DNA of 64,000 nt from Opitutales bacterium. GTDB lineage: Bacteria; Verrucomicrobiota; Verrucomicrobiia; Opitutales; PNEW01. Numbering within the stretch: position 1 is the stretch's first letter; each line of letters opens with the position of its first letter. The notes below the pieces were generated by a model, which saw only the letters and a program-made list of their open reading frames with translations, was not told the origin of the DNA and ran no database searches. Below, in pieces: positions 52,301 through 57,622 of the stretch. Both the position numbers and the translations under genes were made by a program. The DNA lies in the NCBI GenBank assembly GCA_965197745.1, contig CBDANS010000006.1, forward strand, positions 864,001-928,000. Reading direction: 5' to 3'.

Positions 52301-52741
52301 TGGAGCGGGCTGTCCCTTGTACCCTTCTTATAATTTGTGCTTTAAAGATTAGTACGCGCCAGGGACAGCACGTTCCACCTAATCTCACTGCTTATTTCTT
52401 AGCACTTACCTTCTCACTTGTCATTGCGAGGAGCAACGCGACGCGGCTACCGAGCAACAGCGACATCTTCCATTCCAGGCAAATGTCGGTTGCGTATTGA
52501 CATCCCCCTGGATTGCCACAGTCGGTAACACCTCCTTCGCAATGACAAAAGGAGAAATTTAGAAATCGTTTTGTCTGCAATTGGCCCTGAGCGCATGCCG
52601 AAGGGAGGGCTCATTGAAGGCCAAGCTGCAACAAGCATCCAGGATCAGGGATCCTACCCCTGCATGATTTTCTTAACCACAATCACCTTGACTCGCCGTA
52701 GTTCTCAGACATTAGCGTGCTAGGGACAGCCCGCTCCACCT
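52301..52741. repeat. Mosaic of REP-like hairpins
   Basis: TGGAGCGGGCTGTCCCT (52301) inverted against AGGGACAGCCCGCTCCA (~52722), partial copy ~52360, inverted RPE-like pair 52418-52548, CCCTGAGC..CGAAGGG ~52585-52604. Confidence 0.75.
52448..52501 (+). mobile_element. 54-nt structured mini-insertion within a REP-like repeat
   Basis: Interrupts the GGC(A)ATCC arm that is intact in sister copies; begins TACCGAG, ends GAC. Confidence 0.6.
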
Positions 52742-52864
52742 CGCTCTCAGTGTTTGTCGTTTACTTCCATCCACTTATTCCAGATGTCACGATAGGTGCT
52801 CTCGAGGCGCCTTGTAAAACTTTCTTCGTCCATCAGGGGGCTTTTCTCCATGCGTGATCGAAGG

Positions 52865-54182
52865 TGGTCGTGACCACGAAAACTGGTACACTTGAAAAGT
52901 TAGTCTGGGTAACCTAGAAAGGACTCAGACAATGAAAGGCAAAAGATACACAACTGAAGAGAAAATACGGATGCTGCGGCAGGCGGACAAAGGGAAAACG
53001 ATCCTGGAAGCATGCCGCGAGAACAACATTAGCGAACAGACTTTCCACCGCTGGAAGCGTGAGTTTGGGATGATTGATGTCGACCAGGCCAAGCGGATGA
53101 AGGAACTCTTTGAAGGAGAACGCGCGGTTAAAACGGATGCTGGCGGACAAGATGCTGGGGATAGAGATCCTGCAGGAGACCCTCGAAAAAAAACTGTAAG
53201 CCCTGGGCACAAGCGGCAAGTGGCAGAGAGACTTGTGGCTCGGGGCCAGTGTTCGATGCGAGCGGGGTGCCGGTACTTTCGGCTGCACCGTTCCACCTAT
53301 GCGTATAAGGCGAAGCATCCGGATGCTTGGTTAATGAAACTGAAGGCGGCAGTAAGGCGGTTATCACGGCAATATGCCAGGTGGGGCTATCCGAAGATCA
53401 CGAAGCTGTTGAAAGACGAAGGCTGGGAGGTGGGTAAACGTCTCGTGCAAGGTCTACGACGCGAACTGGGCTTGGCGATCCCCCAACGCAAGCCAAGACG
53501 TCGGGGCAGGGGTGTTTCCACCGGGCTGCCGACCAAGGCCGAACATCCCGGCCATGTTTGGACCTGGGATTTTATCCACGATAAGACGGTCCGCGGTGGC
53601 AGTTTAAAAATGTTGACCGTGCTCGATGAGTACACCCGCGAGTGTCGAGTGATCCATGTTGATCGCCATATCAATGCGGAAACGGTGCGCGGTATCATGC
53701 AAAAACTGCTTGCCCGTCATGGGCCGCCACAATATATTCGCAGTGACAACGGTTCCGTTCCGAGGAGCGAAGCGACGACATGCGAAGCCATTCATTGAAA
53801 AGGAATTGAGAGCCTGGCTAACTGCGATGAAAATCAAAACCCTCTATATCGAACCAGGAAGCCCTTGGCAGAACGGATACATTGAATCGTTCCATGCCCG
53901 TTTTCGCGAGGAGTGTTTAAACCGTGAACAGTTATGGACTTTGACCGAAGCCCGCGTGGTCATCGAAGATTGGCGCTGGCTTTACAATCATGTCCGACCC
54001 CACCGCAGCCTCGGCAACATCACTCCACGGCACTTCACTGAAAACCTCAATACCGAAGGCTCGGGCTCCATTCGGGCTACGCCCTCATTGCGCCCAAGCC
54101 TTGACTTCCTCTACCAACTTAACTTCAACATTAACCTCTCCAGACTAACTCTCCCGGTGGACCAGTTTGTGTAACCCGACCA
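52865..54182 (+). mobile_element. IS3-family element, inactivated (copy 1)
   Basis: ~44-bp imperfect TIRs TGGTCG...GTTAGTCTGG; OrfA HTH, A8 slippery site, OrfB WTWDF/SDNG/PWQNGYIES; frameshifts; no TSD seen. Confidence 0.92.
53758..53789 (+). mobile_element. 32-nt hairpin mini-insertion in IS3 OrfB
   Basis: TTCCGAGGAGCGAAGCGACGACATGCGAAGCC between DNGS and FI; shifts the frame. Confidence 0.75.
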
Positions 54183-54792
54183 CAGACAAAGACAAATATC
54201 TTTAAGGGACAGATTTTGCTGCGGGGAAATTATATAAAAATAATTCATGCTTTCGTACGCTCGATTGAATGGTTTCGAGGCCGATGGGGTTTTTAAAGCT
54301 TCGAAGCTTAATTTGATTTGCCCGTGAAGGGGTCTGAGTGCCTCGAGAAAGGGCGTTTGCATCTTAAGGCAGGGAATGGGTTGTTTCATAACGAAGGAGC
54401 ATCGTACATTGTAGAGCAAATTTAAGCGGGGTTCTTTTTAAATAATTTTGGCTGTCAAACCTTGCCCTTTGTAAATATATTTTCCAGCGAGCAAATCGAT
54501 ATATGGACTAAGGGTCGGTCAGCTGATCGACCCCCCCGCCCCCTAGTAACATGATTTACTCTCTCTTCGATTTATTTCAAAATTAGCGGACACCCGCGAT
54601 GTTAGACGGCGAACTTTTTCTTGATGGGAATACCCTTAAATTATGGGTCGCAATGGGTGTGGCAGTAGTATGTCAACACCGGCTTAATCAGGGTTTTAAA
54701 CTGGGGCTTACTCCTTAATTATCGATTATCTAAGACCGTTAGGAAATTATAAGTTAAAAATAATATATTGATGATCAATAACTTACAAACTT

Positions 54793-54820
54793 ACTAGACA
54801 TAATAGTTGTTGTGCGGTTC
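54793..54820 (-). other. dif-like XerC/D recombination site
   Basis: GAACCGCACAA-CAACTA-TTATGTCTAGT, an 11-6-11 layout resembling GGTGCGCATAA-TGTATA-TTATGTTAAAT. Confidence 0.5.
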
Positions 54821-55355
54821 ACCTTCTAAGACCTCCTCTCGGTGCCGTCCTCTTTTGGTCCACGCACACTGGCGCTGATAACGGTCTGCTCAGGCAACCT
54901 GAGCAAGGAGCAGTCACTCTTTTTTAAGTGTGTCCACAGGTTGGCCTTCATTGCGGACAACCTACAATATCACTTAATCAATGGGCAGATCGATTAGAGA
55001 GGATCGTGTCGATCCTCCCTCTCCTTTTTTAGTGGTCTACTTTTCACCAGAGTTAGTGCCAGAAAAAAAATGATAATATTGACAGCAGCAATTTGCGCGC
55101 AAAAAAAATGCCCCACCTCTCAGATTCAGGAAGCATCTGAAAACAGCGACGGAACAGTTGCCCCTCGAAATAAAATCTGTCATGAAAAACTGTAAAATGC
55201 AGTTGCGAAGCAACGGTTTGTCCAGGAGCTATCCTTGGGTTCGATAAATCAGTCTCGTCATACACGACAGGATTCTATGAAATGGTGCCGAAAGTAAACT
55301 TCTTACCCAAACTCGTGTCAGGCAAGTAAGGTGGAGTTATGGGAGCTATGAACCG

Positions 55356-56269
55356 ATGAATATACTTCAAGAGATGTTGAATTCCGTTTTAGCAGATTCC
55401 GACTTTGACAAATACTCTGACGATCTGCATGCAGCGTCAGGCGATATTATTCCTAGGATTGCCAACAAAACTGCAGAATCTATATTAACCAGACATCTCC
55501 TTCCCCTATTCATCTCAACAGATTTAGAAGCAGGAACCGATTTCAACCGCGAGTTCCGCAACGCCGTCGTGCGGTCAGGTGATACTGTATTTGAGGCACT
55601 TACCAGGATGCACGCCCGACCGTGCCAGGTATCATCTGCCATTCTCGTCTTACGGCGTACCGGTTATGCATACGACACGCTCGCACGGTGGCGAACCCTG
55701 CATGAAATTTCAGCGATGAGTTCTCTTATAAGTAAGCATGGTAAGGAACTAGCAGAAAAATATCTGCTGCACGATACCATACAGCGATATAAGATAGCAT
55801 GTCAGCACCAGAAATATAAAGAGCAATTAATGAGGAACCAATTACGCAGGAGGAATTTGACAGTCTCAAGTCAGAACACGACCAGCTCGTAGCTCGATTC
55901 GGCGAGTCGATAAGAAGGAATACGGCTGGGCAACTTCAATACTTGGAAAAGATCTTCCCACGATAAGCGACATTGAAAAACACGCTAACTTGGAACATAT
56001 GAGGCCTTATTACAGAATGGCGAGTGACAACGTGCACGCAAACTCTCACGGCGATTACTTTAGGATAGGGTTGAGTCAGATTCTTCACGATGATGATCTA
56101 CTTCTAGCTGGCGCAAGCAGTATGGGGTTGGCTACTCCTACTCATTCTACTGGGATTGCATTAAACCAAATAACCTCGAATTTGCTTTTAAATGTGTTGA
56201 ACTTCGACTGCTTAGTCATCTCAAATACACTCCTTAAATTAGTACATGAGATTTTGAAAGTATTCCTTG
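55356..56269 (+). pseudogene. DUF5677-like protein, frameshifted and cut by an IS
   Basis: ARWRTLHE in ORF 55356-55892; YYRMASDNVHAN in ORF from 55990; 3' end runs into the IS3 terminus. Confidence 0.55.
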
Positions 56270-56656
56270 TGATTGGACCCCGTTTTTCGTACCAATTATT
56301 ATGTGAGAGAGTTACCGGGTATTAATGGTTTTAGGATTGATGTATATGAGAGATCTTGGCGCAGTGAGGGCGTAGCCCGAACGCGGCCAAGAGCGGAAAG
56401 GAATGTGACAAACTCTTGTGGGCTTTTAAAGCCTAATCGACTGTGGGGATGTTCATTGTTATAGGTCTGACGCCATTGTTCTATTAGCACTTGCGCTTCA
56501 GCCACGCTGAGCAACACTTCACGGTTCAAACACTCATCGCGTAAGCGGTTGTGAAACGACTCGATGAAACCGTTTTGCCAGGGACTGCCCGGATCGATAT
56601 ATATCGCCTTGATCTTTTTGTCGGACAACCACTGCTGCACCTGATGAGCAATGAAT

Positions 56657-56688
56657 GGCTTCGCATGTCGTCGCTTCGCTCCTCGGAA
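56657..56688 (-). mobile_element. 32-nt hairpin mini-insertion in IS3 OrfB
   Basis: Exact reverse complement of 53758-53789 at the homologous codon. Confidence 0.75.
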
Positions 56689-56816
56689 CACTGCCGTTGT
56701 CACTGCGGATATAGCTAGGAACTCCCTCTTCATCGATGGTTTCGCTGAGTACCGAGAGAACATCGGTTGAGGTGAGCTGTCGAGCTACCCGGATGCGTAA
56801 ACATTTACGCGTATAT

Positions 56817-56859
56817 GTCTTCGCTTCGCTTGAGTGTCGTCGCTTTCAGCTCCTCGGTA
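56817..56859 (-). mobile_element. 43-nt hairpin mini-insertion in IS3 OrfB
   Basis: TACCGAGGAGCTGAAAGCGACGACACTCAAGCGAAGCGAAGAC between LID and YTR; adds an in-frame TGA. Confidence 0.7.
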
Positions 56860-57622
56860 CATCGATCAAGGTCATCATCTTTAGCATACCGCCATTGTCT
56901 GTACGATCATGGACAAAGTCCCAGGACCAGACGTGATTGCGACCGGTTGCTTTAGTAGGGAGCCCAGTAGAGATCCCCTGACGGTGTCTACGCTTTTTTG
57001 GTGGCTTTACCTGTAAGCCCGAAGAACGTCGCACTGCCTGTACAAATTTCCTGCTTGCCGCCCAACCTTCTTTCACCAGCAAGGCACGAATGCGCCGGTA
57101 ACCGTAACGGGGATGTTCCCAGGACAAGGTCAAAATCCGCTCGGCCAATTGCTGAGCCTTCTTACTGGCCTGCTTGGGTCGGTAGCTGTACGTTGACCAA
57201 CTGAGGCTGAGATAAGCACAAGCCCTCTAAAACGAGCACAGCCCCTTCTCAGCCGCATCTTTTACTGCTCGCTTCTTCTGCTTTGGGCTCACCATTTTTT
57301 TGAGAGCGTTTCCTCCAACACCCGAAGCTTGAGCATTTGATCAGCGAGCATCTTCTTCAGCTCCGTATTCTCCTTTTCCAGCTCTTTAAATCGCTTCGCA
57401 TCAGCCAGCTCCAAGTTGCCATACTTTTTGCCCCAGCGATAGAAGGTCTGTTCACTTAGGTTGTTGCCGTGGCAGACTTCCTGCACGGTTTTGCCCGTAT
57501 CGGGCTGCCGCAGTATTGCTATGATCTGTTCTGTTGTATATCTTTTTCTTTTCATTGAGGTTATCTGTTTATCCCGATAACCTCTCTCTGTTAATGATAC
57601 CATTTTTGGGGGTCACTCCAAT

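What the first reader, a model, noticed from the sequence alone, without database searches (positions are those of the whole stretch)
52448..56859. Candidate new family of tiny structured insertions that target AAT sites inside other mobile DNA
Seen: four insertions share one junction pattern. G|TTCCGAG...GCC|ATTC (32 nt, twice), G|TACCGAG...GAC|ATAT (43 nt) and C|TACCGAG...GAC|ATCC (54 nt). Each begins T(T/A)CCGAG, ends in C before AT, has no clear target duplication, and folds into hairpins (GCGAAGC mini-hairpins or a long stem). The empty sites would be GAATTC (DNGS-E-FI), GAATAT (ID-E-YTR) and CAATCC, so each insert appears to replace the first A of AAT. CAATCC is shown directly by intact sister repeats; the other two are inferred from IS3 consensus. 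I saw none in housekeeping genes. Inference: a non-coding micro-element with non-DDE chemistry, possibly acting on single-stranded DNA, that parasitises or silences transposons. I do not recognise it as a described element.
Basis: partly seen in the sequence, partly recalled or inferred. Interest (0 to 1): 0.9.

Follow-up and report, generated by a model that had tools for sequence, protein, structure and literature searches.

The report
Tiny hairpin inserts breaking transposase genes
These are real copies of an apparently undescribed family of 24-45-base hairpin-bearing DNA inserts that land at a few exact spots, mostly inside the transposase genes of jumping elements in Opitutales bacteria, and how they move is still unknown.

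Summary
The conserved "head" (T-W-CCGAGGA-R-C, a small hairpin, G-Y-GACGACA) occurs 121 times in this genome. Of these, 118 lie in IS3-family transposase genes at just three Glu codons, all in sense orientation. The other 3 lie in tRNA T-loop-derived palindromes, and none lies in a housekeeping gene. Empty sister alleles in the same genome show GATGAATAT and GTGAATTC, so the one-base replacement (or two bases, counting the element's 3' A) holds. The 32-nt insert is 32/32 identical in IS lineages whose flanks are about 64% identical, so it entered them separately and recently. Most copies then multiplied by riding on the broken IS copies. The head occurs in 28 of 201 Opitutales genomes and matches no Rfam family. 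No enzyme could be assigned; links to Ssn-like GIY-YIG and RAYT-like genes are weak, and no read shows RNA-level removal. Earlier agents of this scan reported the same family on other Opitutales DNA.

The parts
53758..53789 (+). Class A micro-insert, 32 nt. It has the head TTCCGAGGAGC-GAA-GCGACGACA and a second GCGAAGC mini-hairpin, and ends in C. It splits the Glu codon of DNGS-E-F in an IS3-family transposase (IS1-type copy), causing a frameshift and a stop.
   Evidence: Empty sister copies are shown. There are 72 copies at this site in the genome.
56657..56688 (-). Class A micro-insert, identical 32 nt, at the same codon of a second IS3 lineage (IS2-type) on the minus strand.
   Evidence: It is 32/32 identical to the copy at 53758, while the 200 nt to its right are 127/200 identical. 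An empty GAA-TTC allele lies at C7:970608.
56817..56859 (-). Class B micro-insert, 43 nt. It has the head TACCGAGGAGC-TGAAA-GCGACGACA, then GCGAAGC, and ends in GAC. It splits the Glu codon of LID-E-YTR in the same IS2-type copy. The net addition is 42 nt and it carries an in-frame TGA.
   Evidence: There are 10 empty alleles reading GATGAATATACG and 31 copies of this class.
52448..52471 (+). Related shorter module (TACCGAGC-AAC-AGCGACATCTTCC) following GCGGC inside a hairpin repeat. Empty sisters read GCGGC|AATCCAGG there.
52420..52546 (+). Host of that module: a hairpin repeat with terminal inverted repeats GTCATTGCGAGGAG...CTCCTTCGCAATGAC. The same repeats bracket small GIY-YIG (Ssn-like) genes elsewhere in the genome.
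   Evidence: The architecture matches NTS-ssnA-NTS as described in PMC11893778 (sections read).
52871..54182 (+). IS3-family element (IS1-type copy) carrying the class A insert. The left end is approximate. Its transposase is split into ORFs 52932-53798 and 53656-54174.
   Evidence: The right end comes from loose ends.
56271..57620 (-). IS3-family element (IS2a-type copy) carrying class A and class B inserts. Its transposase is in three ORF pieces.
   Evidence: There are 14 copies at 98.5-100% identity, all with both inserts, and several have 4-bp target duplications.

Best explanation
The inserts are members of a lineage-specific family of ultra-small (about 24-45 nt), non-coding, non-autonomous mobile DNA repeats of Opitutales.

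Anatomy. Each has a conserved 5' head: T, then A or T, then CCGAGGA, a two-base-pair stem closing a mostly G-N-A triloop, then GACGACA. A variable tail follows, often holding a second GCGAAGC mini-hairpin and ending in C (or CA).

Insertion (shown). A copy enters in one fixed orientation at a G/C-A-A/G-T site. It makes no target duplication and replaces one base (or two, if the 3' A is counted as part of the element). In this bacterial family it has entered three Glu codons in the catalytic core of several IS3-family transposase lineages. It has also entered T-loop-like palindromes beside tRNA genes. Every IS-borne copy breaks the reading frame or brings a stop, so it inactivates that transposase copy.

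Amplification (copies shown; trans-mobilisation inferred). The broken IS copies then multiplied, presumably mobilised in trans by intact copies. This is why the genome holds about 120 inserts from perhaps 10-15 primary events.

Spread within an IS lineage (inferred). Short-tract gene conversion also moves or removes the insert between copies.

Mechanism (inferred, not shown). The element is handled as single-stranded DNA by a trans-acting protein that recognises the head hairpin. Candidates are an Ssn-like GIY-YIG nuclease or a RAYT-like HUH enzyme. Neither is established.
For: Reality and scale:
- 121 head matches in this genome: 118 in IS3-homologous loci at three codons, all sense; 3 in T-loop palindromes; 0 elsewhere.
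- 0 hits for the reversed control pattern.

Filled and empty alleles:
- Site B has 10 empties reading GATGAATATACG, and site A has an empty GTGAATTC.
- Four intact 403-aa copies differ from five compared filled copies (of 9) essentially only at the insert, over about 1.24 kb.

Separate recent entries:
- The 32-nt insert is 32/32 identical in three IS lineages whose right flanks are 124-127/200 identical between IS1 and IS2 types.
- The 4 nt directly 5' of the junction remain lineage-specific: TTCC, CAGT, ATCG.
- A different variant sits at the same codon of a 35%-identical IS3 lineage in another genome (L119).

Hitch-hiking: 14 IS2a and 9 IS2b copies all carry inserts A and B, and at least 3 have 4-bp target duplications.

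Disruption: frameshift or in-frame stops in every class.

Hairpin: the closing pair covaries. It is GC in 12, AT in 4 and GT in 1 of 17 distinct heads with none unpaired, and 2 of 500 shuffles reach this. Across all 43 distinct heads the counts are 32 GC, 7 AT, 3 GT and 1 mismatch.

Distribution: head present in 28 of 201 Opitutales genomes.

Gene conversion:
- The synonymous TTC/TTT flank change travels with the insert.
- All four combinations of two polymorphic sites exist among near-identical copies.

Single-strand and partner hints:
- GNA triloops are DNA-type mini-hairpins (recalled knowledge).
- The first 20 nt of the head match 17/20 with the interior of the local Ssn-type repeat, whose inverted repeats bracket four small GIY-YIG genes.
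- Y1_Tnp is present in 25 of 28 head-positive genomes against 81 of 173 head-negative ones (my tally).
Against: - No enzyme is tied to the element. The Ssn-like protein was found in only 5 of the 28 head-positive genomes, and not in G038, which has 77 heads.
This genome has a single RAYT-like gene that is not flanked by the repeats.
- GAAT alone cannot explain the targeting: there are 47,761 such sites, and 1,199 GATGAAT sites.
- DNA folding of the empty IS3 sites shows no common hairpin context, so target recognition is unexplained.
- Replacing one or two target bases is not what known HUH, DDE, serine or tyrosine recombination does (established knowledge).
- The junction is not uniform. Some copies keep both A's (L134/L238, L135/L136).
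- Most empty alleles at site A read GAG rather than GAA, so the direct precursor allele is seen only once, at C7:970608.
- No de novo event or excised form was observed.
- All reads laid were assembled contigs, not raw reads.
Confidence: 0.6

Rival explanations
1. Homing-like spread only. A site-specific nuclease cuts empty or filled alleles, and repair copies the insert between homologous IS copies by gene conversion. Under this view there is no transposition proper, and the few founding events were illegitimate accidents.
For: - Near-identical IS1b copies differ at the insert plus a linked synonymous change 3 nt downstream (TTC against TTT).
- All four combinations of two polymorphic sites occur, which shows short-tract conversion among copies.
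- Surviving empties mostly carry GAG, as expected for cleavage-resistant alleles.
- Small GIY-YIG genes are present.
Against: - The insert is identical in lineages whose sequence differs right up to the junction (4 lineage-specific bases next to the G), which homologous repair from another lineage would overwrite.
- It occupies non-homologous sites: three codons, T-loop palindromes and mosaic repeats.
- Empty GAA-T alleles persist at site B in 10 loci.
Confidence: 0.2
2. The inserts are scars or miniature remnants of a larger integrating element, such as an integrase island that targets T-loop-like sequences. Only its two ends would be left.
For: - Copies sit exactly in the T-loop position of tRNA-3'-end-derived palindromes beside tRNA genes in this and other genomes.
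- A tyrosine-integrase element interrupts an IS3 transposase at a T-loop-like TCGAATCG.
- A serine-recombinase island abuts a class C insert at C4:33221 and its C5 twin.
Against: - The integrase junction in IS3 lies at a different codon (YIES|F) and lacks the head.
- No gene-bearing element bounded by head and tail was found in this genome: all 121 heads have their tail within about 45 nt.
- No direct repeat of an att core flanks the inserts.
Confidence: 0.1
3. The insert is an inherited, functional part of these IS elements, for example a regulator of transposase expression. On this view it is removed from the RNA or bypassed by the ribosome, so the IS copies are not dead.
For: - All 23 full-length IS2a/IS2b copies carry inserts A and B and still multiplied.
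- No intact IS2-type copy exists in this genome.
- The head contains a Shine-Dalgarno-like GAGGAG.
Against: - Empty, intact alleles exist in this genome, in relatives and in other sequencing runs.
- Simple removal of the insert leaves the frame one base short.
- Classes differ in frame effect (+31, +42, +35/36 nt) and carry stops.
- No matching take-off and landing codons are shared by the classes (reading).
- In the one RNA run, a contig runs through the insert. The only skipping contig carries the extra letters AG of an empty DNA allele.
- The insert is 32/32 identical against about 64% identical flanks, which rules out ancient inheritance.
Confidence: 0.05

Closest known systems
Small dispersed repeats (SDR) of Nostoc and relatives (Elhai et al. 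2008, Genome Res 18:1484). The paper is not held; I saw it only in reference lists and in one descriptive passage of PMC5861425. Other details are recalled.
   Same: Both are very small (tens of nucleotides), hairpin-forming, dispersed repeats that appear mobile. Both are found at specific short target motifs and inside other repeats, and neither has a known enzyme.
   Different: The lineage (Opitutales) and the sequence differ. Here the commonest hosts are three fixed codons of IS3 transposase genes and T-loop-like palindromes. One or two target bases are replaced, and most copies are amplified passively by their IS host.
REP / REPIN elements with RAYT transposases, and the GTAG- and CGTC-tagged REP superfamilies (PMC3116915, passages; PMC3733652, abstract and passages)
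   Same: Both are 20-40-nt hairpin repeats with an unpaired conserved tag at one end. Both are sometimes clustered in mosaics and sometimes sit inside genes (Opitutus terrae is named as rich in intragenic REPs in PMC3733652). Both are thought to be moved in trans as single strands.
   Different: The tag here is TWCCGAG, not GTAG or CGTC. The stem is only 2 bp plus a triloop. The copies are overwhelmingly intragenic (in transposase genes) and disruptive, not in-frame. No RAYT gene flanked by them was found.
NTS / Ssn-related motifs with SsnA, the GIY-YIG single-strand-specific nuclease (Chenal et al. 2025, PMC11893778; Results parts and Discussion read)
   Same: This genome has Ssn-like 102-aa GIY-YIG genes bracketed by inverted hairpin repeats beginning GTCATT, the NTS-ssnA-NTS layout. 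The interior of that repeat shares 17 of 20 bases with the head of the micro-inserts.
   Different: The micro-inserts lack the GTCATT...AATCC-type outer stem that defines the motif. This Ssn type co-occurs with them in only 5 of 28 genomes. Ssn is a nuclease with no known joining activity, and NTS repeats are reported as rarely intragenic.
IS200/IS605-derived miniature elements (PATEs) (recalled knowledge)
   Same: Both have subterminal hairpins, no terminal inverted repeats and no target duplication. Both insert in one orientation relative to an asymmetric target.
   Different: Those elements insert 3' of a fixed tetra- or pentanucleotide and lose no target base. Here the 5' flank shares only a final G or C, and a base is replaced.

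Membership tests
REP/REPIN (RAYT-mobilised) | Conserved GTAG (or CGTC) tag next to a 5-13-bp palindromic stem | tested here: not met
   The tag is T-W-CCGAG and the stem is 2 bp with a 3-6-nt loop. Family features were taken from PMC3733652 Table 1.
REP/REPIN (RAYT-mobilised) | A RAYT gene flanked by the repeats in the same genome | tested here: not met
   There is one RAYT-like gene in G000 (NF047646 at 66.6 bits, below its cut-off of 80) with no head motifs in its flanks. Only sporadic proximity was seen in other genomes.
Ssn-related motif (SRM/NTS) | CGTCATT-type tag, palindrome, AATCYRG tail | tested here: not met
   The micro-inserts lack the outer stem and tail. The host repeat at 52420-52546 does fit. 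The consensus was taken from PMC11893778.
Ssn-related motif (SRM/NTS) | Co-occurrence with an ssnA-type single-domain GIY-YIG gene | tested here: inconclusive
   Both are present in G000, G032, G060, G049 and G070, that is 5 of 28 head-positive genomes. Of the 13 Ssn-positive genomes, 8 lack the head. Only one protein query at E<=1e-8 was used.
MITE (DDE-mobilised miniature element) | Terminal inverted repeats and a target-site duplication | tested here: not met
   There are no inverted termini and no duplication. A target base is lost instead.
IS200/IS605-type miniature element | Insertion immediately 3' of a conserved tetra- or pentanucleotide, with nothing lost | tested here: not met
   The 5' flanks share only the last base. 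One A is replaced at sites A, B, C and D.
Intron or translational-bypass element | Removal or skipping restores the reading frame | tested here: not met
   Excising the insert leaves the frame one base short. No known RNA family matches. No precise-skip contig appears among the 15 joints shown in the one RNA run or the three other runs; 27 further joints were not shown.
Small dispersed repeats (cyanobacterial SDR) | Sequence families SDR1-8 of Nostocaceae | not testable with these tools
   The paper is not held. The resemblance is by description only.

The most novel reading that the evidence does not exclude
The inserts represent a new way of moving DNA. A sub-50-nt single-stranded hairpin element would be pasted in by an unrecognised enzyme that swaps out one or two target bases. 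Its preferred targets, T-loop-like sequences and three catalytic-core codons of DDE transposases, would make it act as a natural, heritable disabler of insertion sequences.
Probability: 0.25. Interest if true: 0.85.

Novelty: new variant of a known kind. Interest (0 to 1): 0.7.

Why it matters
If these elements move by themselves, they are among the smallest site-specific mobile sequences known. They also come with unusually clean filled and empty sites: the same codon hit in transposases that are only 35-60% identical. That makes the unanswered question of how REP-like and SDR-like micro-repeats move directly testable with oligonucleotides and a handful of candidate proteins.

They also show a second layer of parasitism. 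Micro-elements disable transposase genes and are then amplified by the very insertion sequences they broke. This matters for annotating IS 'pseudogenes' and for models of transposon control in bacteria.

Tried and rejected
- **RNA-level removal.** I laid one metatranscriptome run and three other runs, all as assembled contigs. Skipping contigs across the 32-nt insert all carry extra letters (AG, AGTTT, TAG, and CT on the + strand), which identify empty DNA alleles and not splicing. Absence of a clean joint in contigs proves nothing, and only 15 of 42 joints were shown.
- **Known RNA families.** None matched in the window region or in seven related loci.
- **Reverse transcriptase.** RVT_1 was found in 1 of 5 head-rich genomes, G038 only, so a retro-mechanism is unlikely.
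- **Hairpin context of IS3 targets.** DNA folds of 8 empty sites show no shared structure.
- **Integrase island as parent element.** Its IS3 junction lies elsewhere and lacks the head.
- **RAYT flanks.** There is no consistent head motif next to Y1_Tnp genes in 12 loci from five genomes.
- **Viral contigs.** Of 19 pattern hits, only 2 (one sequence seen twice) look like true elements.
- **Scan of genome contigs.** It cannot give a distribution outside Opitutales, but there are look-alikes in Woeseiaceae.
- **Resemblances to the hammerhead core and the 8-17 DNAzyme core.** I considered both from memory and dropped them, because conserved positions do not fit.
- **Frameshift or hopping readings.** I examined the codons by eye and rejected these readings.
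- **** timed out after listing the 32-nt copies. Faster plain-pattern scripts replaced it.


Full report
**1. What is there.**
The window is G000:C6:864001-928000 of a 4.45-Mb, 7-contig Opitutales genome (order named by record titles and by earlier notes). Two IS3-family elements lie in the flagged stretch. An IS1-type copy spans about 52871-54182 (+) and an IS2-type copy spans 56271-57620 (-). Both have HTH_Tnp_1, HTH_21, rve and rve_3 domains, split over several ORFs.
- a 32-nt block at 53758-53789;
- the identical block at 56657-56688 (-);
- a 43-nt block at 56817-56859 (-).

Read through, each block gives a frameshift or an in-frame stop.

**2. Scale and sites.**
A pattern for the shared 5' part (the "head") finds 121 copies in the genome:

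| Site | Copies | Host |
|---|---|---|
| Glu codon of DNGx-E-F (site A) | 72 | IS3-family transposase |
| Glu codon of LID-E-YTR (site B) | 31 | IS3-family transposase |
| Glu codon of LRD-E-CLN (site C, a third class of 36 nt) | 15 | IS3-family transposase |
| T-loop-like palindromes just downstream of tRNA-Asn-type genes | 3 | tRNA-derived repeat |

- All 118 IS-borne copies are on the coding strand, and none lies in any other gene.
- The full head has no hit for a reversed control pattern in 201 genomes.

**3. Empty sites.**
About 122 IS3-homologous loci exist in the genome. Uninterrupted sisters show site B as GAT-GAA-TAT-ACG in 10 loci and site A as AGT-GAA-TTC in C7:970608. Equivalently, if the following A is counted as the element's last base, two bases are replaced.
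- Most other empties at site A read GAG. These include four intact copies encoding a 403-aa transposase in this genome and 8 of 8 empty IS2-type copies fetched from two genomes of the same family.
- The junction is not perfectly uniform. In G060 the class C insert is followed by AATG, and in two other genomes T-loop hosts read GGTTCG + insert + AATCC.
- Contigs from other runs reveal further population-level insertions at other spots of the same two IS copies, near 53193/53196, 53869, 56532/56535 and 56577.

**4. Mobile, not inherited.**
- The 32-nt insert is 32/32 identical in IS1a, IS1c and IS2a copies. Yet the 200 nt to its right are only 124-127/200 identical between IS1 and IS2 types.
- The four bases directly before the junction stay lineage-specific.
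- A different variant occupies the same codon of a VDNGPEF-type IS3 lineage in another genome (L119).

The site has therefore been entered repeatedly and recently.

Copy number, by contrast, is mostly passive. All 14 IS2a copies (98.5-100% identical) and all 9 IS2b copies carry inserts A and B, and at least three have 4-bp target duplications. No IS2-type copy in this genome is intact. An empty IS2 allele is abundant in another run and in relatives, so mobilisation in trans is plausible but inferred.

Within the IS1b subfamily, filled and empty copies are otherwise near-identical. The insert travels with a synonymous TTC/TTT change, and all four combinations with a second polymorphism 650 nt away exist. 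This shows short-tract gene conversion among copies.

**5. Anatomy.**
- The head is T, A/T, CCGAGGA, R-C, loop, G-Y, GACGACA.
- The R...Y pair covaries. In 17 distinct triloop heads it is GC 12, AT 4 and GT 1 with none unpaired, and 2 of 500 shuffles reach the observed score. Over all 43 distinct heads the counts are 32 GC, 7 AT, 3 GT and 1 mismatch, and some of the 43 are probably chance coding matches.
- Loops are mostly G-N-A triloops, the stable DNA mini-hairpin type (recalled).
- Tails vary. In this genome the tail is a second GCGAAGC hairpin; elsewhere it is a longer GACCGG...CCGG stem.
- No Rfam family matches.

**6. Distribution and hosts elsewhere.**
- The head occurs in 28 of 201 sampled Opitutales genomes: 119 in G000, 77 in G038, 69 in G060 and 18 in G032.
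- Outside the family of G000 the usual hosts are T-loop-like palindromes and 5' tRNA fragments beside intact tRNA genes.
- In G038 the hosts are mosaic arrays in which head-like modules follow one another.
- The site A sequence of the IS1 lineage (GACAACGGTTCCGAATTC) resembles those T-arm palindromes. This may explain why it is hit, but sites B and C do not resemble them.

**7. The fourth insert.**
It sits in a 127-nt hairpin repeat (52420-52546) whose inverted termini also bracket four small GIY-YIG genes. This is the NTS-ssnA-NTS layout of Chenal et al. 2025 (paper sections read). Empty sisters read GCGGC|AATCCAGG. Filled ones have about 24-26 extra bases beginning TACCGAG and ending CATCTTCC(AT). 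The window copy also looks like a hybrid of two hairpin types. Its head is a shortened version of the main head, so it is a relative and not the same class.

**8. Search for the enzyme.**
- The Ssn-like protein is found in 13 of 201 genomes, only 5 of them head-positive. G038 has none.
- Y1_Tnp is found in 106 of 201 genomes.
- The one RAYT-like gene here is not flanked by the repeats.
- RVT_1 is found in 1 of 5 head-rich genomes.
- A tyrosine-integrase element sits in an IS3 copy at another codon, without the head.

No partner can be named.

**9. RNA-level rivals.**
In the single RNA run, one contig runs through the insert. The one skipping contig carries the AG of an empty DNA allele. Removing the insert would leave the frame one base short in any case. 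These were contigs, so the test is weak.

**10. Comparison and novelty.**
The closest described things are cyanobacterial small dispersed repeats, tagged REPs/REPINs and Ssn-related motifs. Defining features of each were tested and not met, or could not be tested (see membership table). Literature searches for Ssn/GIY-YIG, small dispersed repeats, Opitutales repeats and REP-interrupted IS3 genes gave no description of this family. The Elhai 2008 paper and any supplements were not available to me.

Earlier agents of this scan described the same family on another Opitutales genome, and related repeats in this genome. Where I repeated their claims (real inserts, base replacement, dead IS copies that still spread), my results agree.

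Noticed in passing
window about 53105-53112 (own genome alignment columns 333-335): Near-identical IS1b copies carry either CTC-GAG-AAG or CTC-TTTG-AAG in orfA. The 3-nt form gives the usual split orfA/orfB that needs a -1 frameshift at A-AAA-AAA. The 4-nt form fuses everything into one 403-aa ORF. Both forms occur in filled and in empty copies.
   Followed up: partly
own genome C7:1541977-1542282, C7:1545599-1545904, C7:483586-483879, C6:787886-788155: Small GIY-YIG (Ssn-like) genes are bracketed by inverted GTCATTGCGAGGAG repeats. Two copies are intact and two are broken by stops.
   Followed up: partly
own genome C7:1065131-1066400 (-): A 429-aa tyrosine-integrase element is inserted in an IS3 transposase gene at the YIES|F codons, at a T-loop-like TCGAATCG. 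That same IS copy also carries a class A micro-insert.
   Followed up: partly
own genome C4:33221-34800 and C5:224477 onward: A class C-like micro-insert in a truncated IS3 copy is directly followed by an island encoding a resolvase-type serine recombinase. The two loci are 99.6% identical up to about 104 nt past the insert and then diverge.
   Followed up: partly
window 53193-53196, 53869, 56532-56535, 56577: Contigs of other sequencing runs carry additional TACCGAG-headed insertions at these places of the two IS copies. One is in reverse orientation at the frameshift heptamer. These insertions are absent from this assembly.
   Followed up: no
own genome C6:355396-355700 and C5:236400-236620: An intact tRNA gene is followed by one or two about 98-nt units. 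Each unit is a palindrome built from the tRNA T-arm and acceptor end, with a micro-insert in the T-loop position.
   Followed up: partly
L166-L182 (genome G038): Mosaic repeat arrays in which two or three head-like modules (TTCCGAGGGAGC..., TACCGAGGAGC..., TTTCGAGC...) follow one another. This genome has 46 Y1_Tnp matches and 11 reverse-transcriptase matches.
   Followed up: no
own genome C6:163380-163706 (L117): The single RAYT-like gene is followed by an ORF with a DnaA-C-terminal-like helix-turn-helix segment. A similar ORF lies on the other strand nearby.
   Followed up: no
window 55356-56325: Two adjacent ORFs (178 and 111 aa) between the IS copies look like pieces of one broken gene of unknown family.
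   Followed up: no
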